A DNA stretch of 64,000 nucleotides, from NCBI GenBank assembly GCA_937900965.1, contig CALCGJ010000031.1, positions 17,341 through 81,340 on the forward strand, read 5' to 3'. Shown here one piece after another: positions 4,623 through 64,000 of the stretch. Every line of letters begins with the position of its first letter. Positions within the stretch are counted from its first letter, which is position 1. The notes under the pieces are model-generated. The model was not told the origin of the DNA and did no database searches. It saw only the letters and a program-made list of their open reading frames with translations. The translations under genes and the position numbers were made by a program. The DNA comes from an uncultured Bacteroidota bacterium (lineage in GTDB: Bacteria > Bacteroidota > Bacteroidia > Bacteroidales > FEN-979).

Positions 4623-5381
4623 TTAGATTTGGGTCTTGGGTTTTGGGACTTGGGTCTTGGGACTTGGGACTTGGGACTTGGGACTTGGGACTTGGGGCTT
4701 CAACTTTCCGATGTCTTCCCAAACCGGGCTCGTATCGACAAATCCTTTGATTAGATGATCGGAAGCAAGCCGAATATAAAGATCAGTCAGCGAAAATTTA
4801 CCACTCTCCGTCATCCATGAGAAGATATCCGGATGCAGGATCTGTATCCCGCTGAAAGCAAGGCTCCTGATATCATCACCCTCCCTGCTGATCCGCTGTT
4901 CTCCTGTTTTCCGGTTCTCCCATCCGTACAGTGTATTCTTCTTATCAAAGAGGAAATACCGTGAAGTTTCTCGTTCCCTTACCGCCAGGGTGGCAAGTGG
5001 AGATTCATACCGGTGAAAACGCATCATCTTGTTGAGGTCAAGGTCGGAGAGGATATCCACATTCCGAACCACAAATGGTTCGACATCACGAAAGAACCAG
5101 GATGCTTTTTTCACGCCACCACCAGTCTCCAGCAGCTCATCCGACTCATCAGAGATTGTAATCGTCATTCCGAGATTATCATTTAGCCTGAGGAACTCCA
5201 GTATTTTCTCAGGAAAATGGTGCACATTGATAATCACATCGCGTATCCCATAACGCTTAACGTGTTCCAGTGCATGTTGCAGCAATGGTTTCCCATCAAC
5301 TACTACAAGTGCTTTAGGAATGGAATTGGTGATTGGCCGTAACCGTGTCCCCAATCCCGCTGCAAGTATCATCGCTTTCAT
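4623..5381 (-). CDS. Sugar-1-phosphate nucleotidyltransferase, MurU-like (MurNAc-1-P uridylyltransferase family); C-terminal ~24 aa are repeat-encoded
   Basis: The N-terminus MKAMILAAGLGTRLRPIT is the GxGTRL nucleotidyltransferase signature. The gene lies directly downstream of an APH-type (AmgK-like) kinase. The tail KPQVPSPKSQVPSPKTQVPKPKTQI is the translation of the heptamer array at 4629..4698. Confidence 0.75.
   Translation of the reverse strand: MKAMILAAGLGTRLRPITNSIPKALVVVDGKPLLQHALEHVKRYGIRDVIINVHHFPEKILEFLRLNDNLGMTITISDESDELLETGGGVKKASWFFRDVEPFVVRNVDILSDLDLNKMMRFHRYESPLATLAVRERETSRYFLFDKKNTLYGWENRKTGEQRISREGDDIRSLAFSGIQILHPDIFSWMTESGKFSLTDLYIRLASDHLIKGFVDTSPVWEDIGKLKPQVPSPKSQVPSPKTQVPKPKTQI
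4629..4698. repeat. Heptanucleotide tandem array (TTGGGAC/TTGGGTC) x10
   Basis: Read directly: ttgggtc ttgggtt ttgggac ttgggtc ttgggac x5 ttggggc. A degenerate period-7 continuation (gattgac gattgca ... tttacga tttagat) runs back to about 4594. Confidence 0.95.
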
Positions 5382-7071: not shown

Positions 7072-7096
7072 CCCCTAAATCCCCTGAAGGGGACTT
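7072..7096 (-). repeat. Dispersed 25-nt element R1 (plus strand reads CCCCTAAATCCCCTGAAGGGGACTT)
   Basis: This is the exact reverse complement of the copy at 39170..39194. It overlaps the AddA-like stop codon (7095..7097). A second hairpin, CCCCC-ttta-GGGGG (7100..7113), follows it and is itself translated as …GPLKGE. Confidence 0.9.
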
Positions 7097-10000
7097 ACTC
7101 CCCCTTTAGGGGGCCGGGGTGTGAATAATCCACTACCTCTTCAACGTCAACCTTTCCCCCAACATACACCAATAATTTCCTCACCCGCTGATAGCCCATC
7201 TCCTGAAGAAGCTGGCCGTATCTTTCAATCTGTCTTCGGTGTGATTGCGATCTCTTTCCGGTTTTATAGTCGATTACTGTCACCTCTATTCCATCAAAGA
7301 CTACCCTGTCAGGACGGGATGACTCTCCCTCAGCCTGCAGGATTTCCGGTTCAGTCTTAACCACGACTTCAGCATGAAAATACCTTGCTAGAAGTGGATG
7401 GGATACAACCGTGTCTAACATCTCACGAATAGATGGCTCCTCTTCACGGGATATCATTCCTGAAAGAAGAGCCCTCTTCAAAGCCTCTTCCCGATCCGGG
7501 GCTACCCTGATATCTGCCAGGATTGCGTGAATCCTGCTCCCAAAATCAACTTTTCCTGCAGGATCCTCCATATCCCAGAATTCAGGAGCCCTCTGGCGAA
7601 TTTTTATAGCTTTACGCCAGTCTGACGATGGCATGGATGAGAGTACCCGAATCCCCCCCCGCTTCTTCCGGGATGTTTTTTGCATGGGAGTGAATATTCC
7701 AAACTCATACGTTGATTTAGCCTCTTCCCAAACACCGATTGATTGCAGGTATGCCGAAAAGAAAGCTGGAAGCGATTTCAGCTCCTCCATGTTGGTTGGG
7801 GGCGAAGCAGTTATAATATATAATTGTTCCTGCGGACGGGTCAGAGCGACATAAAGCAAGTTCACCAAATCTAGCATTGATTTGATTTGTTCCTCCCTGA
7901 ACCGGTCAGCATAAACAGTATCCAGCATCTGCTTTTCGACTGGCAAAAAGGCGGATTTAAGTCCTGTCTTGTCTCCAGGGGGCAACTCAACCCACAGATA
8001 ATTCTTATTTGCCTTGAATAGGTTCTCATCTGCAAACGGAAAAATAACAACCGGAAATTCAAGTCCTTTCGCTTTGTGAATTGTCATAATTCTGACAGCA
8101 TCAACTCCTTCGGGTACGACGATAGAGAGTTTCATTTTATGCTGATCCCACCATTCCAGGAAATCGGCAGCGCTATGGGTCTCTTTCTCCACAAATGTTA
8201 TTACGGCATCAAGAAAGAACTGGACATAGGGATCCGCCTCCTGATCCAGACTAAACGTCCGGATCAGCTTTTCACAGAGATCATAAACCGGAAGACTGAG
8301 TAAGGTGTCTTTTTCAAGGTCTAGCCCATTGTTTCTCAGAATCAACATAAGGTTATCTTCCGGGTGAACAGACCGGCCAATTTCAGTTGCCAACATATGA
8401 AAATCCGCTTTCTTCTGTTTGAGTCTTCCGGCATTCATGAGGTAGTTCACAATCGAGGCCTGGATGATGGTATTGGCCGGATCAAACAGGAACCGGATCA
8501 ATTCGGTGATAAACCTTACTTCCGGTGAGTACGACAACAAGAGGGATTCTGATGAGACCACGTCTATCCCACGAAGGATCAGCTCCCTTGCAATTCGTCC
8601 GGCCTGCCTGTTGGTCCTGCATAAAATGGCAATATCCTGGAGTGCATATCCTCCTGTCAGAAGCTTGTTGATTATCTCTTCTGTGCGGTTTATTGTACAT
8701 TCAGCATACGTCAGATCCGGATCCTCCCCGGTGATGACATCCAGACGAATATACCCCCCCTCAGTGAGGGCGGAAGTTTTTTGCTCCAGATCTTTGTAAA
8801 CATCCTGTAAGCCGGGATCCAGGTGCTGAGAAAGCCAACGGAAGAATCGGTTGTTAAAGGTCACGATTTCCGGTGATGACCGGTAGTTAGAGTCAAGATG
8901 ATGTTCGGTAAAATACTGTAAGAAGAGAGTCTCCCGCTGTCGGATCAGTTCATTTTCATCACGGCCGGGAAGGGCCGGCAATGATGTAAACTGCGATACG
9001 TCTCCATTCCTCCATCGGTAAATAGCCTGTTTCCCATCACCAACAACGAGGTTGAAATATCCGCCAGCAAGAGCATTCTCCATAAGCGGGACAAAATTTA
9101 GCCACTGGAGGCGGGATGTATCCTGGAACTCGTCAATCATGAGGTGGTGATACTTCTCACCCAACCGTTCATAAATAAATGGGACAGGTTCGTGCATGAC
9201 GATCCGGGCAATACGGCTGTTGAATTCGGAAATGTGAACCAGGTTATGCTGACGTTTAAATCCCTCAAGTACCCGTCCGATCTCATTCAGGACAGCAAGG
9301 GGATAAATAGTTTTGGTCAATAACTTAGCCAGATGATAGCTTTGTGATTGTGTATTTCGCAACGCTTCAGATTGTTGACAGATCCCGTGCAATTCCGACT
9401 TGATCTCATGTATTGCTGCAATATCAGTTGATGAGGCTTTTGGTCCTGTCCATTTATCCTTTTCCAGTGTGGTAATCACCCGGCTGCCAGGCTCCAGCTT
9501 ATCCATTCTCCCTGTGGCCAGGTATACAAAATACCCAGGGATCCCGGTTTTTCCATAATAGAATGAGCCGTGAGGAATCCCGTTGAGGTCAATCAGCTTC
9601 AGTGCTTTCTCTCCCAGCTCTTTAAACTGTTGTTCAATCCATCGGATCCGGGCATGCAGCTGCTTGCTGATGCTGTTAAAATCATCGAGAGTGAGTGAGG
9701 AAAGTTTTCTCACATGGGTTTCACCCTCTTCATCCATGAGCAGTTTGGCGAAAGAGACCAGTAACCTGTCTATATTCCATCCTTTGTCCTCCTCCATCCT
9801 GGATTCCAGAAAACTGACAAGAAGCCTGGTGAGTTCCTCGTCGGAACCAGCACGCTCCAGCAAGAGGTCCACAGCAGTTGTTAAAAGCTCCTCCGCCTCC
9901 AGCTCCACAGCAAATGAGACCGGCAATCCGAAATCGTGAGCAAAAGCACGGATAATACGATGGGAAAAGCTATCGATGGTTCCTATAGAGAATTCAGAAT

Positions 10001-10313
10001 AGTGATGAAGAATCAGGGATAACGCCTCTCCGGCTCTACGGGACAACTCCACCAGGTCTAACCCGGTCTCCTCAATCAGGCTTAGTTGCATCTGTCCTGA
10101 GGATCCCTCAGGGATGATTTCATGGGTTTGGGAAAGATCGCTCAACGCTTTCATTACCCGATCCTTCATCTCGTTGGCTGCTTTATGAGTGAAGGTGATA
10201 GCCAGAATATGACGGAACCCTTGAGGATGTACCAGTACCATCTTCAAATATTCCTTAACCAGAGAAAATGTTTTTCCTGATCCGGCAGAACTCCTGTAAA
10301 CAGCAAAACTCAT
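7095..10313 (-). CDS. AddA-like UvrD/Rep-family helicase with C-terminal PD-(D/E)XK nuclease domain
   Basis: The Walker A motif is SAGSGKTF. UvrD-type motifs are present (MIDEFQDTS, TIHKAKGLEFPVV). The C-terminal nuclease motif is RPDRVVF…VIDYKTGK. Confidence 0.85.
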   Translation of the reverse strand: MSFAVYRSSAGSGKTFSLVKEYLKMVLVHPQGFRHILAITFTHKAANEMKDRVMKALSDLSQTHEIIPEGSSGQMQLSLIEETGLDLVELSRRAGEALSLILHHYSEFSIGTIDSFSHRIIRAFAHDFGLPVSFAVELEAEELLTTAVDLLLERAGSDEELTRLLVSFLESRMEEDKGWNIDRLLVSFAKLLMDEEGETHVRKLSSLTLDDFNSISKQLHARIRWIEQQFKELGEKALKLIDLNGIPHGSFYYGKTGIPGYFVYLATGRMDKLEPGSRVITTLEKDKWTGPKASSTDIAAIHEIKSELHGICQQSEALRNTQSQSYHLAKLLTKTIYPLAVLNEIGRVLEGFKRQHNLVHISEFNSRIARIVMHEPVPFIYERLGEKYHHLMIDEFQDTSRLQWLNFVPLMENALAGGYFNLVVGDGKQAIYRWRNGDVSQFTSLPALPGRDENELIRQRETLFLQYFTEHHLDSNYRSSPEIVTFNNRFFRWLSQHLDPGLQDVYKDLEQKTSALTEGGYIRLDVITGEDPDLTYAECTINRTEEIINKLLTGGYALQDIAILCRTNRQAGRIARELILRGIDVVSSESLLLSYSPEVRFITELIRFLFDPANTIIQASIVNYLMNAGRLKQKKADFHMLATEIGRSVHPEDNLMLILRNNGLDLEKDTLLSLPVYDLCEKLIRTFSLDQEADPYVQFFLDAVITFVEKETHSAADFLEWWDQHKMKLSIVVPEGVDAVRIMTIHKAKGLEFPVVIFPFADENLFKANKNYLWVELPPGDKTGLKSAFLPVEKQMLDTVYADRFREEQIKSMLDLVNLLYVALTRPQEQLYIITASPPTNMEELKSLPAFFSAYLQSIGVWEEAKSTYEFGIFTPMQKTSRKKRGGIRVLSSMPSSDWRKAIKIRQRAPEFWDMEDPAGKVDFGSRIHAILADIRVAPDREEALKRALLSGMISREEEPSIREMLDTVVSHPLLARYFHAEVVVKTEPEILQAEGESSRPDRVVFDGIEVTVIDYKTGKRSQSHRRQIERYGQLLQEMGYQRVRKLLVYVGGKVDVEEVVDYSHPGPLKGE

Positions 10314-21329: not shown

Positions 21330-22550
21330 CTAATCCCTCTTTGCTTCAAGCATCTTCAGTCCGAATGCTTTGCCAAAGTCATGACATTGCTTGATTGTCT
21401 CTTCGTGTGGAGTAAACCGGATCATCAACCCATCGGTAAATACATTCAGCCGGAGAACCTTAAGTGCGGAGTCAATGATTTTAGCAGCTTCCCCGCTCCA
21501 TCCAAAAGATCCAAACGAGGCAGCGATTTTGTTCCGGTCCCTGATTGGGTTAATAAGGGCAAATACCTGGTATACAGGCAATAACACGTTCTGACTGAAG
21601 GTTGGGCTTCCCAGGATAATTCCGGATGCTTCAATAATTTTTTGCTCTATCACCGCTAATTCCATAGTTTCAATATCGCAGAGGTCTACATCAAACGAAC
21701 CAGCCATCCTGATCCCTGCAGCGATCTCTTTAGCAATCAAACCCGTATTTTTATACGCTGAAACATAGCCAATGAAAACCCTGTTGGGAAGTGGAAAAAC
21801 CATAGCCTCTCTGGCATACTGTTCAGAGAGATCCACATACTTTTGCCAATTCTTACGGAGGATAGGACCGTGTCCGGGGCACACTATGTCGATCTCAAGA
21901 GACCGTATCTTACTGATTGCCTGTACCATAAACCGACTGTATGGTTTCATGATCACATCGAAATAATAGCGGTAGGCATCATCAAAATCCCCAACCAGGT
22001 CATCAAACATCTCTTCCCTGGCATAGTGACAACCGAATGAATCACACGTAAACAGGATCTTATCTTCTTCAAGGTATGTATAGATGGAATCGGGCCAGTG
22101 AAGGTTCGGAGCCCCGATAAACCTGAGTTTCTTGTTTCCCAGGTCTAGCGTGTCACCATCCTTTACAATCAGATGAGGCACCTCCATTCCCAATTGATCT
22201 TTCAGGTATCGGATCGCATTTCCGCTTCCCACAACTTTCGCTGAAGGAGCTATCTCAAGCAGATCCTTTAATGTTCCGGAATGATCAGGTTCCGTGTGGT
22301 TCATCACGATGTAGCTGATCTCGGAAGGATCAGTCATTTCCCTCACTTTTGCCAGGTAAGTATCACGGAAAGTAGCTTTTGTGGTTTCAATAATACATTT
22401 CTTATCCGCCCGGATAAAATAGGAGTTATAGGTTGTTCCGAACTCTGTTGCCATCACTACGTCAAACGTGATCAGGTCAGGGTCAAGCACACCGATCCAG
22501 GAAACATCTTTGGTAACCTTTAAGATTTTATTGCCATTCATTGCCATCAT
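21330..22550 (-). CDS. FprA-family flavodiiron protein (metallo-beta-lactamase-like plus flavodoxin-like domains)
   Basis: It has the di-iron motif NHTEPDHSG and a C-terminal flavodoxin-like segment GIILGSPTF. The first codons (MMAMNG) lie within the 9-mer array. Confidence 0.85.
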   Translation of the reverse strand: MMAMNGNKILKVTKDVSWIGVLDPDLITFDVVMATEFGTTYNSYFIRADKKCIIETTKATFRDTYLAKVREMTDPSEISYIVMNHTEPDHSGTLKDLLEIAPSAKVVGSGNAIRYLKDQLGMEVPHLIVKDGDTLDLGNKKLRFIGAPNLHWPDSIYTYLEEDKILFTCDSFGCHYAREEMFDDLVGDFDDAYRYYFDVIMKPYSRFMVQAISKIRSLEIDIVCPGHGPILRKNWQKYVDLSEQYAREAMVFPLPNRVFIGYVSAYKNTGLIAKEIAAGIRMAGSFDVDLCDIETMELAVIEQKIIEASGIILGSPTFSQNVLLPVYQVFALINPIRDRNKIAASFGSFGWSGEAAKIIDSALKVLRLNVFTDGLMIRFTPHEETIKQCHDFGKAFGLKMLEAKRD

Positions 22551-22644
22551 TGTTCATCATTGTTCATCATTGCACATCATTGCCATCATTGCCATCATTG
22601 CCATCATTGCCATCATTGCCATCATTGCCATCATTGCACATCAT
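22528..22644. repeat. Tandem 9/10-nt array (TGCCATCAT x7 perfect, flanked by the 10-mers TGTTCATCAT and TGCACATCAT)
   Basis: Read directly. Together with (TCCCTACT)x3 at 22655..22678, it fills the whole parC-fprA spacer. Confidence 0.95.
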
Positions 22645-22677
22645 TCTCTCCACCTCCCTACTTCCCTACTTCCCCAC

Positions 22678-25452
22678 TTATAGTTCCAGTTCCAGCTGTT
22701 CGTCGCTGATGGTTTTGGGTTCAGCGTTCCGGGTTCCGCGTTTCGCGTTCGGCGTTTTGGGTTCAGCGTTCGGCGTTCCGCGTTTCGCGTTTCGCGTTTG
22801 GCGTTCGGCATTTGGTGTTTCGCGTTTGGCGTTAGGCGTTTCGGTTTCCGGATTGCCGGTTGATGGTTCTTTGGGCTTTTTCCCAACTTTTTTAACCTTC
22901 TCCTCGACCTTCGACCCTGTCACCTCGACCTTCGACCCTGTCACCTCGACCCTGGTCTCCTGTTCCAGCCAATTCACCTTCTTCACCGCGTGACCGGTGA
23001 GTCGTTTCCCTTTTGCTTTATAGCCTTTTAGCCCAATGAATTCGGAGATGTTGATCTCTTCCTCTGCTGCCCCTTTGCTCTTCTGTTTCATATCAAAGAG
23101 AATCTGCAAACGTGGATACAAATCGGCAGAGATAGAGACAAAATGGTCTGAGTCATCGAGGTAGGCAAGCTTTTTCTCTGTTATTTCCGGACTAAACCGT
23201 TTTATGTAATATAACTTCGTCTTTGTATCCTGATAGATCACAGTATAGATTTTCCGGGGATCAAATTTCTCAATCCTGAACATATCTTCATCAAAATGGG
23301 TGGAGAGATCAAAAGAGGTGAACCGGAAGTGGCCTGACCGGGTGAAGGTGATAATCCTGTCGGCTCCTGAAAAAGCTCCGAGAAGGGTACCCCTATCCTC
23401 GGCGTTCAGTCTCATCACAGTATCATCATACCAGATGTTGAGAGATCCCAGTGTGGAGACACCTTCCTGGCGAATCTCGATCTTCTTGATTGCATACTTT
23501 GTAAGAATATTCCCCATGGAACTTCTCCCTTTGATAGCCAGGTCGGCAAAATTAAAATCAAACGAGCTCTTTTTGATCCGGGGTTTCGGCTTCAGGTCGA
23601 CCTTAACGACCTCTGCTTCGCCATTAGGGTTTGCGGAGAAGTAAAGCACTTTTGAGCCCAGGGTCCCCTTGGTTAAGTTATATTCCTTGTCGCGCGTTAC
23701 ACCTGTCACGGCAAAGCGCTTGATCATAATCTTCCCATTCTTACCATCTCTGTAAATCAGATTGTAGATCGTCCGGATGTCATTCTTCATGAAGACCTGA
23801 ATATGGATTACATCGTGACCGATAAAAACCTTGTCGGCTACTTTTGTCACCATAAAAGTGCCGTCACTACGGATGACGATAATGTCGTCAATATCTGAAC
23901 AATCGCATATAAATTCATCACGACGGAGGGAGGTTCCGGCAAATCCCAATTCCCGGTTGATATACAGTTTCACGTTTGCCGCAGCTACCTTTACCGCTTC
24001 AATAGATTCAAAATTGCGCAATTCAGTATGCCTGTCGCGATTTTTCCCGTATTTCTTCCTGATCTGCCGAAAATGCTCGATGGCAAAATCGGTCAGGTGG
24101 GCCAGGTGATTGCTCACCTCTTCTGTCTCCTGCCTGATGCCGTTGATCACATCATCGGCTTTGTTGGAATTAAATTTTGAGATTCGTTCAATGGGGATCT
24201 TCCGGAGTTTTTTGATATCCTCTTCGCTCAGCGGCCTGATGAAATCCTTTTCAAACGGCTTCATCCCGCTCTTGATAGCCTTATCTATATCCTCGTCCGT
24301 CTTGCATTTCTTAATCCCTTCGTAGACCTCATTTTCAATGAAGATTTTTTCGATGGATGCATAATGCAACTGCTCATTCAGCTCCTCCAGCCGTATCTCC
24401 AATTCTCTTTTCAGTAAGTAGACCGTGTGTGCTGTAGATATCCTCAGGATTTCCTTAACACCGACAAATCTTGGCTTTCCATTCTCGATAACACAGCAAT
24501 TGGCGGAAATTGGCACCTCACACTGTGTGAATGCATAGAGAGCATCCATTGTAGTATCCGGAGAGACACCAGGTGTCAGGTGGATCAGAATCTCTACATC
24601 CCTGGCGGTGTTATCATCGATCTTCCGAATCTTGATCTTTCCTTTGTCATTGGCATTGAGGATCGAGTCAATAACAGACTCTGTAGTTGTGCCATATGGG
24701 ATTTCATTGATCACCAATGTCTTTTTATCAACCTGGCTAATCCTGGCACGCAACCGGACCTTCCCGCCTCGCAACCCATCGTTGTACTTTGAGACATCAG
24801 CCAGTCCGCCTGTCGGAAAATCGGGGAAGAGTTCAAAATCCTTCCCCTGCAACACTTTGATGGAGGCATCAATCAGTTCGTTGAAATTATGCGGCAGAAT
24901 CCTGGAAGCAAGTCCCACAGCGATCCCCTCAACTCCCATTGCCAGCAACAGAGGAAACTTAACCGGCAGGGTGACCGGTTCTTTGTTCCGTCCGTCGTAG
25001 GAGGTTTTCCATACCGTAGTCTTTGGGTTGAAAACCACGTCGAGCGAAAATTTAGAGGGGCGTGCTTCAATATACCTTGGTGCTGCAGCACTGTCACCTG
25101 TATGGATATTTCCCCAGTTGCCCTGAGTATCAACCAGGAGATCCTTTTGCCCAAGCTGAACAAGTGCATCCCCAATAGAGGCATCACCATGAGGATGGTA
25201 TTTCATGGTATGTCCGATGATGTTGGCGACCTTGTTATACCGTCCGTCATCCAGCTCTTTCATAGCATGAAGCAAGCGACGCTGGACAGGTTTCAGTCCG
25301 TCAAGAATTTCCGGAACAGCCCGTTCCAGGATAACATAGGAGGCATAATCCAGGAACCAGTTCTGGTACATAACATCCAAATGGATTGCCTCTTCAAGCT
25401 TTCCTGATTCAAGTTCCGGGTGTTCGCCGTTAAGATTTTGTTCGTCGTTCAA
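22678..25452 (-). CDS. parC: DNA topoisomerase IV subunit A (ParC) with a ~95-aa repeat-encoded C-terminal extension
   Basis: The sequence MYQNWFLDYASYVILERAVPEILDGLKPVQRR…HPHGDASI is the Bacteroidota ParC type. I prefer the TTG start at 25452 (MNDEQNLNGEHPE…). The GTG at 25587 would read through hairpin and heptamer repeats. Confidence 0.85.
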   Translation of the reverse strand: MNDEQNLNGEHPELESGKLEEAIHLDVMYQNWFLDYASYVILERAVPEILDGLKPVQRRLLHAMKELDDGRYNKVANIIGHTMKYHPHGDASIGDALVQLGQKDLLVDTQGNWGNIHTGDSAAAPRYIEARPSKFSLDVVFNPKTTVWKTSYDGRNKEPVTLPVKFPLLLAMGVEGIAVGLASRILPHNFNELIDASIKVLQGKDFELFPDFPTGGLADVSKYNDGLRGGKVRLRARISQVDKKTLVINEIPYGTTTESVIDSILNANDKGKIKIRKIDDNTARDVEILIHLTPGVSPDTTMDALYAFTQCEVPISANCCVIENGKPRFVGVKEILRISTAHTVYLLKRELEIRLEELNEQLHYASIEKIFIENEVYEGIKKCKTDEDIDKAIKSGMKPFEKDFIRPLSEEDIKKLRKIPIERISKFNSNKADDVINGIRQETEEVSNHLAHLTDFAIEHFRQIRKKYGKNRDRHTELRNFESIEAVKVAAANVKLYINRELGFAGTSLRRDEFICDCSDIDDIIVIRSDGTFMVTKVADKVFIGHDVIHIQVFMKNDIRTIYNLIYRDGKNGKIMIKRFAVTGVTRDKEYNLTKGTLGSKVLYFSANPNGEAEVVKVDLKPKPRIKKSSFDFNFADLAIKGRSSMGNILTKYAIKKIEIRQEGVSTLGSLNIWYDDTVMRLNAEDRGTLLGAFSGADRIITFTRSGHFRFTSFDLSTHFDEDMFRIEKFDPRKIYTVIYQDTKTKLYYIKRFSPEITEKKLAYLDDSDHFVSISADLYPRLQILFDMKQKSKGAAEEEINISEFIGLKGYKAKGKRLTGHAVKKVNWLEQETRVEVTGSKVEVTGSKVEEKVKKVGKKPKEPSTGNPETETPNAKRETPNAERQTRNAKRGTPNAEPKTPNAKRGTRNAEPKTISDEQLELEL
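22711..22857. repeat. Heptanucleotide tandem array, consensus CGTTYSG, x21 (147 nt)
   Basis: Read directly: ggttttg ggttcag cgttccg ggttccg cgtttcg cgttcgg … cgtttcg gtttccg gattgcc. On the minus strand it is translated as a 7-aa periodic peptide. Confidence 0.95.
22903..22951. repeat. 21-nt (3 x 7) tandem repeat CTCGACC-TTCGACC-CTGTCAC x2.3
   Basis: Read directly. It encodes VEVTGSK VEVTGSK in the ParC tail. Confidence 0.9.
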
Positions 25453-25467
25453 AAGATTTCGGCTTAG

Positions 25468-25487
25468 AGCCGCAATAAATTGCGGCT
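25468..25487. repeat. R3 hairpin AGCCGCAATAAATTGCGGCT (second copy)
   Basis: It is identical to 10400..10419 and lies in the parC 5' leader. Confidence 0.9.
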
Positions 25488-25498
25488 GTACATTCGTA

Positions 25499-25526
25499 GA
25501 TCGCGGATCATGGATCGCACATCGCA
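25499..25526. repeat. Heptanucleotide array GATCGCG GATCATG GATCGCA CATCGCA
   Basis: Read directly. Confidence 0.85.
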
Positions 25527-25529
25527 CTA

Positions 25530-25537
25530 CAAAATTA
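25530..25537 (-). promoter_or_regulatory. Candidate -7 box TAATTTTG (minus strand) for parC
   Basis: The plus strand reads caaaatta, which matches TAnnTTTG on the minus strand. It lies about 77 nt upstream of the TTG at 25452 and downstream of the GTG at 25587, which argues against the long ORF. Confidence 0.35.
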
Positions 25538-25581
25538 CGATTTCCAAAGAAAGCAGGCAGGGTTGTTGATAAAAAGTTGTT

Positions 25582-25616
25582 TATCACGGATCACGGATCG
25601 CGGATCGCGGATCAAA
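25582..25616. repeat. Heptanucleotide array TATCACG GATCACG GATCGCG GATCGCG GATCAAA
   Basis: Read directly. It uses the same unit as the tsaD insertion. Confidence 0.9.
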
Positions 25617-25650: not shown

Positions 25651-25723
25651 GGTCCAGTAGCTCAGGGGATAGAGCAACAGCCTTCTAAGCTGTGGGTCGT
25701 AGGTTCGATTCCTACCTGGATCA
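25651..25723 (+). tRNA. tRNA-Arg (anticodon UCU)
   Basis: I folded the cloverleaf by hand. The acceptor stem is ggtccag/ctggatc, the D arm is gctc-aggggata-gagc, the anticodon arm is acagc-cTTCTaa-gctgt, the variable loop is gggtc, and the T arm is gtagg-ttcgatt-cctac. The discriminator is A and no CCA is encoded. Confidence 0.9.
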
Positions 25724-25724
25724 C

Positions 25725-25997
25725 ATGAGAAGACTGAACAAGATTCAAAAAAGGATTCTGGTAATCGGGATTCTTCTGCTTATTGCAGTGACTGTATACC
25801 TGCCATGGAAAGCAGTAGTAAACCCTCCAGATTATACTATCTCTGAATTTATCGGATACGGGTTCCTTACCCATCCGCCCAACAGTCCAATGGGATATGA
25901 CTCTTTCGTGGTGATAGACTATCTGAGACTCCTCTTCCAATGGACAGGATTGGTAATCCTGATCTGGCTTGGCATCTGGCTTGCCAGAAAAAAATAG
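25725..25997 (+). CDS. Small hypothetical membrane protein (two predicted TM helices)
   Basis: The ATG lies immediately after the tRNA. The sequence is MRRLNKIQKRILVIGILLLIAVTVYLPW…LVILIWLGIWLARKK. I recognise no homology. Confidence 0.35.
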   Translation: MRRLNKIQKRILVIGILLLIAVTVYLPWKAVVNPPDYTISEFIGYGFLTHPPNSPMGYDSFVVIDYLRLLFQWTGLVILIWLGIWLARKK

Positions 25998-26040
25998 TCC
26001 TTTCCCTTGTCAAAATGTTTTCTTTATAACGATAGCAGAC

Positions 26041-26048
26041 TATCTTTG
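26041..26048 (+). promoter_or_regulatory. Candidate -7 box TATCTTTG for porP/sprF-like gene
   Basis: It matches TAnnTTTG and lies 29 nt upstream of the ATG at 26077. Confidence 0.4.
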
Positions 26049-26076
26049 TAAGGATACGATTTCATTCAAACCAGTG

Positions 26077-27006
26077 ATGAAAAAGGGATTGGCGATTGCA
26101 ATGTTTCTTATTTCGGCAGTAACATACAGCCAGCAGGATCCGCTATATACACAATACATGTATAATAAACTGGCGATCAATCCCGCTTATGCCGGCAGTC
26201 ACGAAGTACTTTCAGTAGAGGCCCTGACAAGGATTCAATGGGTTGGGATTACAGGAGCCCCCCGTACAACGTCGTTAACTGCCAGTACCCCTTTACGTAA
26301 TCCACGTATCGCGCTCGGACTCTATACTTACGTTGATAAACTTGGCCCTACAACTGATTATGGAGTGATGGGGAATTTTACATACAGGATTATTTTTGAT
26401 AACAGTAAACTGTGTTTTGGAGTTAATGCAGGGTTCAAATATTACAACATCGACTTTGCCTCTCTTAAGGCGAAAGATCCCGGAGATATTGAACTTATCA
26501 ACCAGGTGACAAACAAAGCAGTGCCTGATGTAGACTTCGGGATCTATTATTATACCCCCCGGTACTATGTAGGTTTATCATCCAAGCATCTGATACAGAA
26601 TCAGATGTCGGTTTCAAGTACTCCTTTACCGGATACCGATGTAAGTTTCTCCAGATTGAAGCGACACTTTTACGGAATAGCCGGTGCTGCTATCCCGTTA
26701 TCAGATAATCTGGTATTGATGCCTTCCCTGTTAATGAAACTGGTTGAAGGAGCCCCTTTTCAAACCGATATCAATGCAAGTATCCTCATTCGTGAAATAT
26801 TTACTATAGGGGCTTCCTACCGAACGAATGCAGCCATTGCCTTTCTGGTTGAAGTCAATATTACGAAGAACCTTTCCATTGGATATTCTTACGATATATG
26901 GTTCAATGCCCTCCAGGGGTATAACAAGGGTTCTCATGAAATCAGGATTGGTTATGATGTAAATCTTTTTGATAATTCACGGATGCTTACTCCCAGGTAT
27001 TTTTAA
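26077..27006 (+). CDS. PorP/SprF-family type IX secretion system membrane protein
   Basis: The ATG at 26077 gives MKKGLAIAMFLISAVTYSQQDPLYTQYMYNKLAINPAYAG, the characteristic PorP/SprF N-terminus. The protein is about 310 aa with beta-barrel-like composition. Confidence 0.85.
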   Translation: MKKGLAIAMFLISAVTYSQQDPLYTQYMYNKLAINPAYAGSHEVLSVEALTRIQWVGITGAPRTTSLTASTPLRNPRIALGLYTYVDKLGPTTDYGVMGNFTYRIIFDNSKLCFGVNAGFKYYNIDFASLKAKDPGDIELINQVTNKAVPDVDFGIYYYTPRYYVGLSSKHLIQNQMSVSSTPLPDTDVSFSRLKRHFYGIAGAAIPLSDNLVLMPSLLMKLVEGAPFQTDINASILIREIFTIGASYRTNAAIAFLVEVNITKNLSIGYSYDIWFNALQGYNKGSHEIRIGYDVNLFDNSRMLTPRYF

Positions 27007-60662: not shown

Positions 60663-60697
60663 GAATTCGTAAATCGTAAATCGAAATTTGAAATATG
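60663..60697 (+). repeat. Heptanucleotide leader array GAATTCG TAAATCG TAAATCG AAATTTG AAATATG ending in the permease start codon
   Basis: Read directly. The related word ATTCGTAAATCGAAATG directly precedes the AddA-like start (minus strand, 10311..10330). Confidence 0.85.
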
Positions 60698-63600
60698 CTA
60701 CAACAATTTATACAACGCCCGATTCTCTCTTTCGTAATAGCCATTCTGATCACCCTGGTAGGTGTGCTGAGCCTGATGGTCCTTCCTGTCGCACAATATC
60801 CTGATGTTGTTCCGCCTACGGTCCAGGTAACGGCTTATTACCCTGGCGCCAGCGCTGAGGTGGTGCAAAAGACTGTTGCAGTCCCTCTGGAGGAACAGAT
60901 CAACGGTGTGGAGAACATGATGTACATGACTTCCCAATGTGCCAACGACGGATCCTGTAACATCACCGTCTATTTCGAAGTGGGGACAGATCCTGATATG
61001 GCAACGGTTAACACCCAGAATCGTGCACAACGTGCGTTTAGTGTACTGCCTGCTGCAGTTACACAGGGAGGGGTGATCGTTATGAAACGAAATCCGAGTA
61101 TCCTTATGCTCTATGCACTTACTTCGACGGATACTTCGTACAATTTTGAATTTCTGTCCAACTATGCCCAGATCAATATTGTCAATACGATGAAGCGTAT
61201 TGAGGGTGTAGGGGATGTATCTCTGCTCGGGGGTGACGACTATGCCATGCGCATCTGGCTCAACCCCGACCGGATGGCCGGTCTCAGTATCACTACCGAT
61301 GATGTAGCCAGCGCTATAATGGATCAGAACCTGGAAGCAGCTGCCGGGGCTATCGGCAAAAATCCAGCTATCCCCGGACAGGAACTCGCCTATATCATTC
61401 GGGCTGAAGGCAGGTTACAATCTATTGAGGAGTTTAACAACATCATCATCAAAACAAAAATTGACGGCTCCATCGTGCGGATGGAAGATATTGCCAGGGT
61501 AGAACTTGGGCTGAAAACATACGATGTTCGTACCCGATTCAATCAAAAGCCCTCCCCTTTCATTGCTGTATACCAGTCACCCGGATCCAATGCAACCCAG
61601 ATACGGGCAGATTGTGACGCAATGATGATGAGTCTGGCCAGCCAGTTTCCGCCCGGACTGGAGTATGAGATAGGGCTCGACACGGTTGAATTTGTGGATG
61701 CATCTGTCCATGATGTACTGAAGACACTTCTTGAAGCATTTATACTTGTTTTTCTCGTCGTCTTCATCTTTCTCCAGGATTGGCGGGCAACCCTGATTCC
61801 TGCCGTTACTGTACCTGTCTCCCTGATTGGTGCATTAGCTGCATTCTCGCTTTTCGGCTTTTCGATCAATATGCTTACCCTCTTTGCACTGGTATTGGCT
61901 ATCGGCATCGTGGTGGATGACGCGATTGTGGTCCTTGAGGCGGTGCAGGAGAAGATAGATGAACATGGAATGAGTCCGCTGGAGGCCACCCGAGAGACCA
62001 TGAAAGAGATCGCTCCGGCGATCTTCACCATCACCCTGGTTCTTTCTGCGGTCTTTATCCCAGTATCGTTCCTTGGAGGAACCACCGGGCAAATGTATAA
62101 ACAGTTCGCACTCACCCTCACCTCCTCGATCGTCATATCCGGATTGCTTGCACTTACCTTAAGTCCGGCGATGTGTGTCCTGCTTCTGAAGCCGAAACCT
62201 GAACGAAAAGGGCTGATCGGTAAATTCTTCGATGGATTTGACAGAGGATTCAATTACACGACAAATAAATACATCGCTATTGTAAACAACTTCCTGCATC
62301 ACATCAGCAGACCTCTCATTTTCCTTGGGATAGTCACCATCCTGGTAGTGGTTGTCATGAAGCTCCTGCCAACCGGATTTTTACCTGAAGAAGACCAGGG
62401 GTATTTCTTTGTCAATGTGATCTCTCCTAAAGGGGTCTCGCTACAGATGACCGACCAGGTGATGCATAGTATTGAAAAAATACTTGAAGAGACTCCGGGT
62501 GTTCAGTCCTACTCCTCCGTCCCGGGGTACAGCATCCTTGACGGGACCGTGAGTACCACGAGTGGAGCGGTCTTTGTCAAACTCCTCCCGTGGGATCAGC
62601 GAACGAAAGATTCGTTGCAAGTGGAGTCGATCATCGCCAGGTTACAGACGAAACTTAACCAAATCCCTAACGGAATTTGTATGGCATTCAATGCACCTGC
62701 AATCTCCGGTTTGGGAACCACCGGAGGTCTTGAGTTACAGTTGGAAGACAAGATCGGCGCCGGTCTGGATAAACTGGCAGAGGTTACAACTAATTTTGCA
62801 GTAGCAGCCATGCAGAACAAAACGCTTTCTAATGTATTCACCGGTTTCCGGGTCGATATCCCACAATATTTCCTTACGGTAAATAAAGATAAAGCCAAAA
62901 CGATGGGGGTCCCGGTCAGTGATATCTACGGTGCTCTCCAGGCCCAGTTCGGAAGCCTCTATATCAACGATTACAACCAATTTGGAAAGTCCTACAGGGT
63001 GATTATTCAGGCCGATGCGGTCTACCGGTCCAACCCCGAAGATGTGAACCTGATCTATGTCAGGTCCAGCAGGGGTGACATGGTGCCACTGGGGACACTT
63101 GTCAGCCTTGAACCGATTGAAGGCCCGGATGTGGTGAGGCGGTTCAACCTCTTTAGCTCTTCCAGTTTTACTATTGCACCTGCACCTGGATACTCATCCG
63201 GACAGGCTATCGAAGCTGTTGCAGAGATAGCAAAAACGACTTTGCCTTTCGGATTTGGTTACGAATATTCGGGACTGACACGACAGGAGTTGATTGCAGG
63301 AAACCAGGCCCCGTTTGTTTTTGCACTCTGTTTCGTCTTTGTCTACCTGCTCCTGGCTGCCAAATATGAGAGCTGGTTCCTTCCGATACCCATCCTGCTT
63401 GCAATGCCTTTCGGCATCTTAGGCGCTTTCGGATTGCAGTGGATAAGTGGTTTGCAGAACAACATTTACGCACAAATCGGACTGATCATGCTGATCGGAC
63501 TGGTGGCAAAGAACGCCATTCTCATTATCGAATATGCCAGGCAAAAGCATGAAGAGGGCATGGATCTGATCAAAGCCGCTGAAGTAGCTGCGCGGCTCCG

Positions 63601-63859
63601 TTTCAGGCCTATCCTGATGACCTCTTTCGCTTTCATCCTGGGTGTGGTACCATTGGTTATTGCAGGTGGAGCCGGTGCTGCCAGCAGGCATGCACTCGGA
63701 ACCTCAGTGTTTGGCGGAATGCTGTTGGCCACTATCTGCGGTGTCCTTGTGGTACCTGCTCTCTATGTGGTATTTCAGCGACTTGAGAATTGGATAAAGG
63801 GTAAGGGTCAAGGGTCGAGGGTCGAGGGTCAAGAAAAAAATGGCAATTCATGGCAATAA
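60695..63859 (+). CDS. Efflux RND transporter permease (HAE1/AcrB family) with a ~20-aa repeat-encoded C-terminal tail
   Basis: The N-terminus is FIQRPILSFVIAILITLVG. It is 12-TM and about 1035 aa of AcrB-type sequence (…VVDDAIVVLE…, …GLVAKNAILIIEYA…). The tail KGKGQGSRVEGQEKNGNSWQ is encoded by the heptamers. Confidence 0.92.
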   Translation: MLQQFIQRPILSFVIAILITLVGVLSLMVLPVAQYPDVVPPTVQVTAYYPGASAEVVQKTVAVPLEEQINGVENMMYMTSQCANDGSCNITVYFEVGTDPDMATVNTQNRAQRAFSVLPAAVTQGGVIVMKRNPSILMLYALTSTDTSYNFEFLSNYAQINIVNTMKRIEGVGDVSLLGGDDYAMRIWLNPDRMAGLSITTDDVASAIMDQNLEAAAGAIGKNPAIPGQELAYIIRAEGRLQSIEEFNNIIIKTKIDGSIVRMEDIARVELGLKTYDVRTRFNQKPSPFIAVYQSPGSNATQIRADCDAMMMSLASQFPPGLEYEIGLDTVEFVDASVHDVLKTLLEAFILVFLVVFIFLQDWRATLIPAVTVPVSLIGALAAFSLFGFSINMLTLFALVLAIGIVVDDAIVVLEAVQEKIDEHGMSPLEATRETMKEIAPAIFTITLVLSAVFIPVSFLGGTTGQMYKQFALTLTSSIVISGLLALTLSPAMCVLLLKPKPERKGLIGKFFDGFDRGFNYTTNKYIAIVNNFLHHISRPLIFLGIVTILVVVVMKLLPTGFLPEEDQGYFFVNVISPKGVSLQMTDQVMHSIEKILEETPGVQSYSSVPGYSILDGTVSTTSGAVFVKLLPWDQRTKDSLQVESIIARLQTKLNQIPNGICMAFNAPAISGLGTTGGLELQLEDKIGAGLDKLAEVTTNFAVAAMQNKTLSNVFTGFRVDIPQYFLTVNKDKAKTMGVPVSDIYGALQAQFGSLYINDYNQFGKSYRVIIQADAVYRSNPEDVNLIYVRSSRGDMVPLGTLVSLEPIEGPDVVRRFNLFSSSSFTIAPAPGYSSGQAIEAVAEIAKTTLPFGFGYEYSGLTRQELIAGNQAPFVFALCFVFVYLLLAAKYESWFLPIPILLAMPFGILGAFGLQWISGLQNNIYAQIGLIMLIGLVAKNAILIIEYARQKHEEGMDLIKAAEVAARLRFRPILMTSFAFILGVVPLVIAGGAGAASRHALGTSVFGGMLLATICGVLVVPALYVVFQRLENWIKGKGQGSRVEGQEKNGNSWQ
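63797..63838. repeat. Heptanucleotide array AAGGGTA AGGGTCA AGGGTCG AGGGTCG AGGGTCA AGAAAAA, followed by ~10-nt repeats (ATGGCAATTC-type, 63839..63880)
   Basis: Read directly. Confidence 0.9.
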
Positions 63860-63870
63860 ATGTACAATTC

Positions 63871-64000
63871 ATGGTAAATAAAAAATATTCTTCAAAATTT
63901 CTGGTATATAGTTTACTGCTTCTCTTCATTGCCGGTTGCAAGGTGGGTCCGAACTACAAGCGGCCGGATATTGATACTGGGAAAGAGTTTCGGTTTTCCG
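63871..64000 (+). CDS. Efflux transporter outer-membrane factor lipoprotein (NodT/TolC family), 5' part only; runs off the window
   Basis: Hand translation gives MVNKKYSSKFLVYSLLLLFIAGC|KVGPNYKRPDIDTGKEFRFS. This has a lipobox and the characteristic C-x-VGP-x-Y-x-RP start of NodT-family OMFs. Confidence 0.75.
   Translation, partial: MVNKKYSSKFLVYSLLLLFIAGCKVGPNYKRPDIDTGKEFRFS

What the first reader, a model, noticed from the sequence alone, without database searches (positions are those of the whole stretch)
22678..22975. ParC carries a ~95-aa C-terminal extension that is a direct translation of heptamer DNA repeats
Homology-like ParC sequence ends near …AVKKVNWLEQE. The ORF then reads on through the 21-nt repeat (VEVTGSK VEVTGSK) and through 21 heptamer units. 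These 147 nt equal exactly 49 codons.

The result is a 7-aa periodic, Lys/Arg/Pro-rich peptide (TPNAKRE TPNAERQ TRNAKRG TPNAEPK TPNAKRG TRNAEPK), ending …DEQLELEL.

A second minus-strand frame (ORF 22641..22886) and a plus-strand frame (22541..22993) are also open across the array, so the unit avoids stop codons in several frames. Gain or loss of one unit would therefore swap the tail for a different one rather than simply truncate it.

A basic periodic tail on a DNA-binding topoisomerase C-terminal domain could matter functionally, or it could be tolerated junk.
Basis: partly seen in the sequence, partly recalled or inferred. Interest (0 to 1): 0.65.

Follow-up and report, generated by a model that had tools for sequence, protein, structure and literature searches.

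The report
Repeat-built ParC tail ending in clamp-binding motif
The topoisomerase IV subunit ParC of this uncultured Bacteroidota bacterium really does carry a 92-residue floppy tail translated from 7-base DNA repeats, but the tail is not junk: it stays in frame to reach a short end motif (QLELEL) kept in almost all Bacteroidota ParC proteins, and that motif looks like the peptide replication proteins use to dock on the DNA sliding clamp.

Summary
After ...VKKVNWLEQE, the parC ORF (22678..25587, minus strand) reads 92 more codons. These run through a perfect 21-nt repeat (VEVTGSK x2.4) and about 20 degenerate heptamer units (consensus GC[G/C][A/G]AAC).

Across 179 distinct Bacteroidota ParC sequences the tail varies from 21 to 188 aa and is otherwise unconserved. 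Yet 173 carry Q-[LMIF]-x-L-(F | x-[LFW]) in the last 12 residues, against 0.08% of shuffled tails. This fits the published beta-clamp-binding motif; E. coli Pol III alpha ends ...QVELEFD. AlphaFold2 models the tail as disordered after a GyrA/ParC-type all-beta C-terminal domain.

Close relatives build their tails from different heptamer arrays, all in frame to the same end. Seven near-clonal assemblies share an identical heptamer array. They differ only by an in-frame 21-nt copy and by an intergenic 9-mer count.

Best reading: a repeat-generated flexible linker tethering a probable clamp-binding motif. Binding itself is untested. I found no report of a ParC-clamp link in the searchable literature.

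The parts
22678..25452 (-). parC coding sequence (topoisomerase IV subunit A), as called in the identical database protein P0001 (TTG start, 924 aa). The mechanical ORF extends to GTG at 25587 (969 aa).
   Evidence: Pfam DNA_topoisoIV, E 1.9e-107. NCBIfam NF009397 1346 bits (cut-off 780) and NF007209 769 bits (cut-off 644). No GyrA box.
22945..24000 (-). Folded all-beta C-terminal domain (ORF aa 530 to about 881). Its last strand is ...VKKVNWL.
   Evidence: AF2 pLDDT 80-97. Foldseek hits to GyrA/ParC C-terminal domains, E 3.5e-8 to 2.6e-4.
22681..22956 (-). 92-aa C-terminal tail after NWLEQE. It is disordered and low-complexity (K+R 20, D+E 15, P 9).
   Evidence: AF2 pLDDT 35-46 with no secondary structure for fragment residues 353-440. 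Conservation stops here in A1.
22902..22951 (-). Perfect 21-nt repeat (GGTCGAGGTGACAGGGTCGAA, i.e. three heptamer lengths), 2.4 copies, encoding VEVTGSK VEVTGSK. Copy number is polymorphic and the change is in frame.
   Evidence: TRF, 100% match. P0122 / L092 has one copy fewer with 0 substitutions elsewhere in the gene.
22870..22899 (-). Basic patch KVKKVGKKPK. It corresponds to the KKRGRK-type patch seen about 10-30 aa before the C-terminus in 78 of 179 homologues.
22712..22851 (-). Degenerate heptamer array, 20 units, consensus GC[G/C][A/G]AAC. It encodes TPNAKRE / TPNAERQ / TRNAKRG / TPNAEPK... and sits between the basic patch and the terminal motif.
   Evidence: TRF. Register and per-position counts. 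Identical in the window and in L001-L005 and L092.
22681..22707 (-). Conserved C-terminal motif SDEQLELEL. The core QLELEL (22681..22698) matches the clamp-binding consensus Q-phi-x-[L/M]-x-[F/L].
   Evidence: 173/179 loose definition, 155/179 strict definition, shuffles <=0.08%. Consensus from PMC11139829 and PMC4564189.
22678..22680 (-). parC stop codon (TAA).
22530..22679 (-). Context, not part of the protein. An 8-nt repeat (GGGAAGTA x3, 22655-22679) and a 9-nt array (ATGATGGCA, 22530-22645) fill the spacer to the next gene (21330..22550). The 9-mer count differs among assemblies (6, 7, 10).

Best explanation
The tail is a translated, intrinsically disordered linker. Its job is to hold a short C-terminal docking peptide (SDEQLELEL) at a distance from the folded ParC C-terminal domain.

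In this clade of heptamer-repeat-rich Bacteroidota genomes, the linker has been built and rebuilt by expansion of 7-nt tandem arrays. The linker's own sequence, charge and length are almost free to drift. Only net in-frame changes survive, because the terminal motif must still be read.

The motif most likely is a beta-sliding-clamp (DnaN) binding motif. It would tether topoisomerase IV to clamps left on newly replicated DNA behind the fork, where precatenanes arise. E. coli achieves this localisation through MukB and SeqA instead.

Shown: the repeats, their translation, the disorder, motif conservation, in-frame-only variation, and rapid array turnover.

Inferred: that the motif binds DnaN, and what follows from that for localisation.
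For: 1. The tail is real and stable. The same 924-aa protein sits on 13 contigs from independent metagenomes. The CDS differs by 0-1 substitution among them.

2. Motif conservation. It is found in 173/179 distinct complete Bacteroidota ParC sequences within the last 12 aa, and in 157 at the very end. It occurs in 0/9050 windows elsewhere in the tails and in 0.08% of shuffled tails. Under the review's strict definition the count is 155/179 against 0.05%.

3. Both canonical forms occur: the hexapeptide Q-M/L-E-L-P/E-L (126 sequences) and the pentapeptide Q-M-x-L-F (32). Q and L are invariant. Some homologues end in QLNLF or QLGLF, which are validated E. coli Pol V and Pol II motifs. E. coli Pol III alpha ends SEQVELEFD.

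4. The motif lies at the end of a disordered region, as in Pol II, Pol IV and Pol III alpha (PMC11139829).

5. The tail bodies are unrelated: 21-188 aa, with different heptamer arrays in each close relative. A relative in the same 90% cluster as P0004 has a tail about 33 aa long (after WLEP) with the same end.

6. Among near-clonal assemblies only an in-frame 21-nt change occurs inside the ORF, while the adjacent intergenic 9-mer varies freely.

7. Topo IV is known to need partner proteins to localise behind forks (PMC8216471).

8. More divergent representatives from 50%-identity clusters keep the motif.
Against: - No binding data exist, and no DnaN sequence from this organism was available. 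A ParC-DnaN complex could not be modelled with the tools allowed.
- Short hydrophobic C-terminal motifs can serve other partners.
- Position 2 is mostly Met and the penultimate residue is often Pro. That is allowed by the consensus but not its most common form.
- A few family members lack the motif (P0132, P0215, P0241, L074).
- The 2024 clamp review lists no topoisomerase among partners. That could mean the link is new, or that it does not exist.
- The assemblies are consensus sequences, so rare out-of-frame alleles would be invisible.
Confidence: 0.6

Rival explanations
1. The conserved end motif docks on a partner other than the sliding clamp, such as ParE, SMC-ScpAB, FtsK or a protease adaptor. 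The tail is still a linker plus short linear motif, but the target is different.
For: The conservation pattern alone shows selection, not the identity of the partner. E. coli ParC uses its C-terminal domain to bind MukB, SeqA and FtsK (PMC8216471). The clamp review lists no topoisomerase partner.
Against: The motif matches the clamp-binding consensus in both its pentapeptide and hexapeptide forms. The invariant Q and L sit at the diagnostic positions. Some homologues carry peptides identical to validated clamp binders (QLNLF, QLGLF). No other known bacterial motif has this pattern, to my knowledge.
Confidence: 0.2
2. [quoted passage not shown] In this view it is an autoregulatory appendage that folds back on the C-terminal domain and tunes DNA binding or strand-passage preference, with the end motif contacting ParC itself.
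For: GyrA tails are unstructured, variable in length (0-77 aa) and acidic (PMC8216471). 158/179 Bacteroidota ParC tails are net acidic. The tail follows the same type of domain.
Against: In this clade tail charge is not conserved: +4 here, +16 in P0009, -9 in P0004. What is conserved is a hydrophobic Q-x-x-L motif, which GyrA tails lack. A tail of about 33 aa and one of 106 aa coexist within a single 90% cluster.
Confidence: 0.12
3. The heptamer array is a contingency (phase-variation) locus. Slippage by one unit switches ParC between a motif-bearing form and a form with a replaced or truncated tail.
For: The unit length is not a multiple of 3. A -1 unit change gives a 979-aa protein with a different end, and +1 gives a 943-aa truncation. 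Other tandem arrays at this locus do change copy number among samples.
Against: - The array is degenerate (76-79% match, longest perfect run 2 units), which makes it a poor slippage substrate.
- It is identical in 7 independent assemblies.
- The only in-ORF variant is in frame.
- Every relative examined keeps the motif in frame.
Confidence: 0.04
4. The whole extension is tolerated junk. An intergenic repeat array was captured by loss of the ancestral stop codon and has no function.
For: Other genes in the window do simply run into heptamer arrays at their 3' ends: an NTP-transferase (4623..5381) and an AcrB-family pump (60695..63859). The array sequence itself is not conserved.
Against: The frame returns to a motif shared with ParC from non-repetitive genomes across Bacteroidales and Flavobacteriales. 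The array is therefore an insertion inside an ancestral tail, not a read-through. Tails exist in all homologues.
Confidence: 0.04

Closest known systems
Clamp-binding motifs at the disordered C-termini of E. coli Pol II (QLGLF), Pol IV (QLVLGL) and Pol III alpha (QVELEF)
   Same: All are short linear motifs of the form Q-phi-x-[L/M]-[F/L] or Q-phi-x-[L/M]-x-[F/L], placed at the extreme C-terminus after a flexible segment (PMC11139829; PMC4564189). The ParC ends QLELEL, QMELPL, QMSLF, QLNLF and QLGLF fit this pattern.
   Different: The carrier is a type IIA topoisomerase, not a polymerase or repair factor. Binding is not demonstrated. Met is the preferred residue at position 2.
Acidic unstructured C-terminal tail of GyrA (E. 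coli 35 aa, S. aureus 77 aa)
   Same: Both are non-conserved, variable-length disordered tails following the beta-pinwheel C-terminal domain of a type IIA topoisomerase A subunit (PMC8216471). Most Bacteroidota ParC tails are also acidic.
   Different: GyrA tails have no conserved terminal hydrophobic motif and lack positive charges. This tail is net basic, repeat-derived, and ends in a conserved Q-x-x-L motif.
Recruitment of E. coli Topo IV behind the fork by MukB, SeqA and FtsK
   Same: The functional logic is the same: ParC is localised by protein-protein contacts to newly replicated DNA (PMC8216471; PMC5061553).
   Different: Those partners bind the folded ParC C-terminal domain. MukB and SeqA are gamma-proteobacterial (my own knowledge). 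Here the proposed handle is a terminal peptide and the proposed partner is DnaN.
SSB architecture: folded domain, variable disordered linker, conserved C-terminal tip
   Same: The three-part layout matches, with a fast-evolving, repeat-prone linker and a conserved docking tip (my own knowledge of SSB; PMC9565051 was only listed, not read).
   Different: The SSB tip is acidic (DDDIPF-type), not Q-x-x-L. The proteins are unrelated.
Heptanucleotide tandem arrays (long simple sequence repeats; cyanobacterial STRR-type; TAACTGA repeats)
   Same: Both involve many short 7-nt tandem arrays per genome, mostly at gene boundaries. Heptamers are the most abundant class of 5-11 nt repeats in repeat-rich prokaryotes, and they also occur in some Bacteroidetes (PMC4679880).
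   Different: Here several different units are used, not one. The arrays are embedded in frame inside an essential gene's coding region instead of lying between genes.
Contingency loci (phase-variable simple sequence repeats in ORFs)
   Same: Both have a tandem repeat inside an ORF with a unit length that is not a multiple of 3.
   Different: This array is degenerate and invariant among samples. No frame-shifted allele was seen.

Membership tests
Topoisomerase IV subunit A (ParC) | N-terminal type IIA breakage-reunion domain with the catalytic tyrosine | tested here: met
   Pfam PF00521, E 1.9e-107, aa 89-504. AAPRYIE motif present.
Topoisomerase IV subunit A (ParC) | Scores above the curated cut-off of a ParC family model | tested here: met
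   NF009397: 1346 bits against a cut-off of 780. NF007209 'DNA topoisomerase IV subunit A': 769 bits against 644. The GyrA models fall far below their cut-offs.
Topoisomerase IV subunit A (ParC) | Beta-pinwheel C-terminal domain without a GyrA box | tested here: met
   The AF2 all-beta domain matches GyrA/ParC C-terminal domains. No QRRGGKG-like motif. Foldseek TM-scores are low (0.2-0.4), so the blade geometry is not resolved.
Topoisomerase IV subunit A (ParC) | Decatenase activity together with a ParE partner | not testable with these tools
   No parE gene lies next to it in the window. Enzymology would be needed.
Beta-clamp-binding motif (CBM) proteins | Sequence fits Q-phi-x-[L/M]-[F/L] or Q-phi-x-[L/M]-x-[F/L] | tested here: met
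   QLELEL here. 155/179 homologues fit the strict definition in the last 8 aa, against 0.05% of shuffles. Definition taken from PMC11139829.
Beta-clamp-binding motif (CBM) proteins | Motif lies in a disordered or terminal, accessible segment | tested here: met
   It is at the extreme C-terminus of a segment with pLDDT 35-46 and no secondary structure.
Beta-clamp-binding motif (CBM) proteins | Motif conserved among orthologues while its flanks are not | tested here: met
   Q and L are invariant. Flanking positions carry about 1 bit of information against 3-4.3 bits in the motif. The motif is retained in divergent cluster representatives.
Beta-clamp-binding motif (CBM) proteins | Physical, mutation-sensitive binding to the hydrophobic cleft of DnaN | not testable with these tools
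   No complex prediction or biochemistry was available. This is the decisive missing feature.
GyrA-type acidic C-terminal tail | Unstructured tail after the C-terminal domain, enriched in acidic residues and lacking positive charges | tested here: not met
   The tail is unstructured, but it has K+R 20 against D+E 15. The family as a whole is mostly acidic (158/179).
Phase-variable contingency locus | Near-perfect repeat tract whose copy number varies among isolates and shifts the reading frame | tested here: not met
   Unit match is 76-79% and the longest perfect run is 2 units. The array is identical in 7 assemblies. Read-level minor alleles were not testable.
Heptanucleotide long simple sequence repeats | Multiple tandem 7-nt arrays per genome, mostly at gene boundaries | tested here: met
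   The 64-kb window holds 9 arrays of period 7, 14 or 21 nt among 19 tandem-repeat regions. In this clade such arrays occur at 2.8 per 10 kb, against 0.46 in other Bacteroidota parC loci.

The most novel reading that the evidence does not exclude
Bacteroidota topoisomerase IV is a previously unrecognised client of the beta sliding clamp. A conserved C-terminal clamp-binding motif on ParC, held on a disordered linker, tethers the decatenase to clamps left behind the replication fork. In bacteria lacking MukB/SeqA this would replace the recruitment those proteins provide. In heptamer-rich genomes the linker's length and charge are remodelled quickly by 7-nt repeat expansion under an in-frame constraint.
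Probability: 0.5. Interest if true: 0.72.

Novelty: new variant of a known kind. Interest (0 to 1): 0.6.

Why it matters
How topoisomerase IV finds newly replicated DNA is understood only in E. coli, where it relies on gamma-proteobacterial partners (MukB, SeqA). A clamp-binding peptide on ParC would give a simple, testable recruitment mechanism for a whole phylum that includes the dominant gut Bacteroides. It would also add a type II topoisomerase to the list of sliding-clamp clients, which matters for clamp-targeting antibiotics.

Separately, the locus is a clean natural example of how slippage-prone non-triplet DNA repeats can build and rapidly remodel a disordered protein linker. The only constraint appears to be that the frame is restored before a functional end motif.

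Tried and rejected
- **Exact look-up of the downstream flavodiiron-like protein:** not on record. Its length differs by one residue in other assemblies.
- **JGI metagenome scan for alleles with -2 to +2 heptamer units** between fixed flanks: 0 hits. This organism is not in that collection.
- **The same scan for the GCAACCA array of relative P0003:** a single contig with the reference length, so uninformative.
- **Six literature searches touching a ParC/Topo IV-clamp link:** searches found none, and the 2024 clamp review does not mention topoisomerases. The library lacks most subscription journals, so absence is not proof.
- **Other clamp-motif proteins in the window for comparison:** none of the 35 ORFs apart from ParC has the motif at a terminus. 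No replication genes are present.
- **Sequencing or frameshift artefact:** rejected. Seven assemblies agree and the in-frame end motif is conserved.
- **Read-through into an intergenic array:** rejected for parC, though it does describe two other genes in the window.
- **dN/dS on the array:** not attempted. Each unit is read in all three phases and the arrays of different species are not alignable.
- **Modelling a ParC-DnaN complex:** not possible.
Full report
**1. The observation**

The minus-strand ORF 22678..25587 (969 aa from GTG) is ParC.
- Pfam DNA_topoisoIV matches aa 89-504 with E 1.9e-107.
- NCBIfam NF009397 and NF007209 both score above their curated cut-offs, while the GyrA models fall far below theirs.
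- There is no GyrA box.
- A 100%-identical database protein, P0001, starts 45 aa later at TTG 25452 and is 924 aa.

After ...VKKVNWLEQE the ORF continues for 92 codons (22681..22956). Tandem Repeats Finder reports a perfect 21-nt repeat at 22902..22951 (2.4 copies, VEVTGSK) and a period-7/14/28 array at 22714..22850 with 76-79% match.

In register there are 19 clear NNNNAAC units plus one degenerate flanking unit (22851..22712). The consensus is GC[G/C][A/G]AAC, positions 2, 5 and 6 are invariant, and the longest perfect tandem is two units. However, the third minus-strand frame carries three stops.

Multi-frame openness is mostly arithmetic. Because 7 and 3 are coprime, the three same-strand frames of a heptamer array read the same 21-nt superunit. 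Frame 1 indeed gives a permuted version of the same peptide.

**2. Where the fold ends**

I aligned the C-terminal 440 aa with 70 homologues (A1). AlphaFold2 on that alignment gave an all-beta domain with pLDDT 80-97, ending with the strand ...VKKVNWL. The last 88 residues have pLDDT 35-46 and no secondary structure. Foldseek matched the folded part to GyrA/ParC C-terminal domains (E 3.5e-8 to 2.6e-4). The tail is therefore a disordered appendage on a normal ParC.

**3.

I printed the C-termini of the 120 best homologues and translated 80 GTDB loci. These span Bacteroidales, Rikenellaceae, Alistipes, Odoribacter, Flavobacteriaceae and Cryomorphaceae-like genomes. Every ParC has a tail after the W-x-E anchor. 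Its length is 21-188 aa (median 67), it is otherwise unalignable, and it is net acidic in 158 of 179 sequences.

Nearly all tails end the same way: DEQLELEL, DAIQMELPL, GEQMELF, NQMSLF, AQMKLEL, GQFTLEW.
- The pattern Q-[LMIFV]-x-[LFM]-(F | x-[LFWMI]) occurs in the last 12 residues of 173/179 distinct complete sequences, and at the very C-terminus in 157.
- It occurs in 0 of 9,050 twelve-residue windows elsewhere in the tails, and in 0.08% of shuffled tails.
- Q and the L three residues later are invariant in all 158 end-aligned sequences. Flanking positions carry about 1 bit of information.
- More divergent representatives from 50%-identity clusters mostly keep it (QMELEF, QIKLF, QMELF, QLGLF, QLELF, QLNLF, QMKLEL). 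A few lack it.

**4. What the motif resembles**

The bacterial clamp-binding motif is defined as QL[S/D]LF or QxxLF (PMC12309361). It is also given as QLxLF or QLxLxL (PMC4564189), and as Q-phi-x-[L/M]-[F/L] or Q-phi-x-[L/M]-x-[F/L], often in disordered C-terminal tails (PMC11139829).

QLELEL fits the hexapeptide form. Under the strict definition, 155/179 homologues match in the last 8 residues, against 0.05% of shuffles. The C-terminal clamp-binding peptide of E. coli Pol III alpha is SEQVELEFD. The Pol II and Pol V motifs are QLGLF and QLNLF, and both also occur as ParC ends in homologues.

The coexistence of a pentapeptide class (32 sequences) and a hexapeptide class (126) mirrors the two known motif classes. 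That review lists no topoisomerase among clamp partners. Six literature searches touching such a link found no ParC-clamp report. Binding itself is an inference.

**5. How the tail evolves**

I retrieved DNA for five close relatives with 74-85% protein identity. Each tail is a mosaic of different heptamer arrays:
- CAGTCAC x6 plus AAACGCG x24
- GACGAGG x19 plus CCCGAAA x8
- GCAACCA x9
- GGTCGAG x21 plus AAGCGAA x14
- AGAAGCC x6.6 plus AAAGCGA x11

All read in frame to the same ending. Within single 90%-identity clusters, tails differ wholesale. P0004's tail after WLEP is about 106 aa and P0125's is about 33 aa, yet both end SDEQLELEL. P0009 and P0129 carry different arrays and both end GQMTLEL.

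Lag-7 periodicity of at least 30% occurs in only 6 of 179 tails, all from this clade. P0005, at 77% identity, has an ordinary acidic non-repetitive tail. Tandem arrays of period 7, 14 or 21 nt occur at 2.8 per 10 kb in this clade's loci, against 0.46 in other Bacteroidota parC loci. The array is therefore a lineage-specific insertion into an ancestral tail, lying between a basic patch (KVKKVGKKPK) and the end motif.

**6. Population evidence**

The exact 924-aa protein is on 13 contigs from independent metagenomes. Across five of them the 2,775-nt CDS has 0-1 substitutions. In a sixth, L092, it has none apart from the 21-nt deletion. The heptamer array is identical in all six and in the window.

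The only differences at the locus are copy numbers of perfect repeats:
- One 21-nt unit fewer, in frame, in P0122/L092.
- 6, 7 or 10 copies of the intergenic ATGATGGCA array just downstream of the stop.

In simulation, -1 unit replaces the end and gives a 979-aa protein. A +1 unit change truncates at 943 aa. Changes of +/-3 units keep the motif. No out-of-frame allele was seen, but consensus assemblies cannot exclude rare ones.

**7. Context**

Heptamer arrays in the window mostly sit at gene boundaries. Two other genes simply run into one at their 3' end: an NTP-transferase at 4623..5381 and an AcrB-family pump at 60695..63859. parC differs because the frame comes back to a conserved motif.

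**8. Verdict**

The repeat-encoded sequence is an essentially free-drifting spacer, but the tail as a whole is a selected linker-plus-motif module.

The most likely mechanism is clamp tethering of Topo IV (confidence about 0.6). The rivals are another docking partner (0.2), GyrA-like autoregulation (0.12), phase variation (0.04) and pure junk (0.04).

Noticed in passing
window 22530-22645 (minus-strand unit ATGATGGCA); L001-L005, L092: A perfect 9-nt array between the parC stop and the start of the flavodiiron-like gene (21330..22550) varies in copy number among otherwise identical assemblies: 6, 7 or 10 copies. Two contigs end inside it. Every unit carries two ATGs, and the annotated start codon of the next gene lies in the array's degenerate end.
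   Followed up: partly
window 22655-22679: An 8-nt repeat, GGGAAGTA x3, overlaps the parC stop codon. The parC to next-gene spacer therefore consists almost entirely of three different tandem repeats.
   Followed up: no
window 4623-5381 (-), array 4629-4700: An NTP-transferase-family ORF ends with about 26 aa (KPQVPSPKSQVPSPKTQVPKPKTQI) read straight from a (CCCAAGT)n heptamer array. This is a plain read-through tail with no conserved end.
   Followed up: partly
window 60695-63859 (+), arrays 63797-63833 and 63840-63874: In an AcrB-family efflux pump the Pfam match ends at aa 1028 of 1054. The remaining residues are read from an (AAGGGTC)n array, which is followed by a 10-nt ATGGCAATTC repeat.
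   Followed up: partly
window 25583-25614 and about 25480-25500; tRNA at 25651-25724 (+): GATCCGC/GATCCGT heptamers lie between a tRNA-Arg(TCT) gene and the parC start, and again just upstream of the TTG start. They are invariant among the assemblies compared.
   Followed up: partly
ParC homologues (P0017-P0120, L007-L086): 78 of 179 tails carry a K/R-rich patch (KKRGRKKK-like) about 10-30 aa before the C-terminal motif. It may be a second functional element, such as a DNA or clamp-surface contact. Here it is KVKKVGKKPK at 22870-22899.
   Followed up: partly
P0125/P0126 versus P0004/P0124; P0129 versus P0009: Proteins in the same 90%-identity cluster differ by up to 88 aa purely in the tail. 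This shows very fast turnover of the repeat arrays relative to point substitution.
   Followed up: partly
window 1617-4514 and 7095-10313 (-): An AddB/AddA-like pair: a PD-(D/E)XK nuclease, and a UvrD-type helicase with a C-terminal nuclease domain.
   Followed up: no
window 30429-55710: A cluster of alpha-amylase-family enzymes, a TonB-dependent receptor and proteins with type IX secretion sorting domains. It looks like a starch/glycan utilisation locus. Together with PorP/SprF at 25969-27006, it fits a Bacteroidota origin.
   Followed up: no
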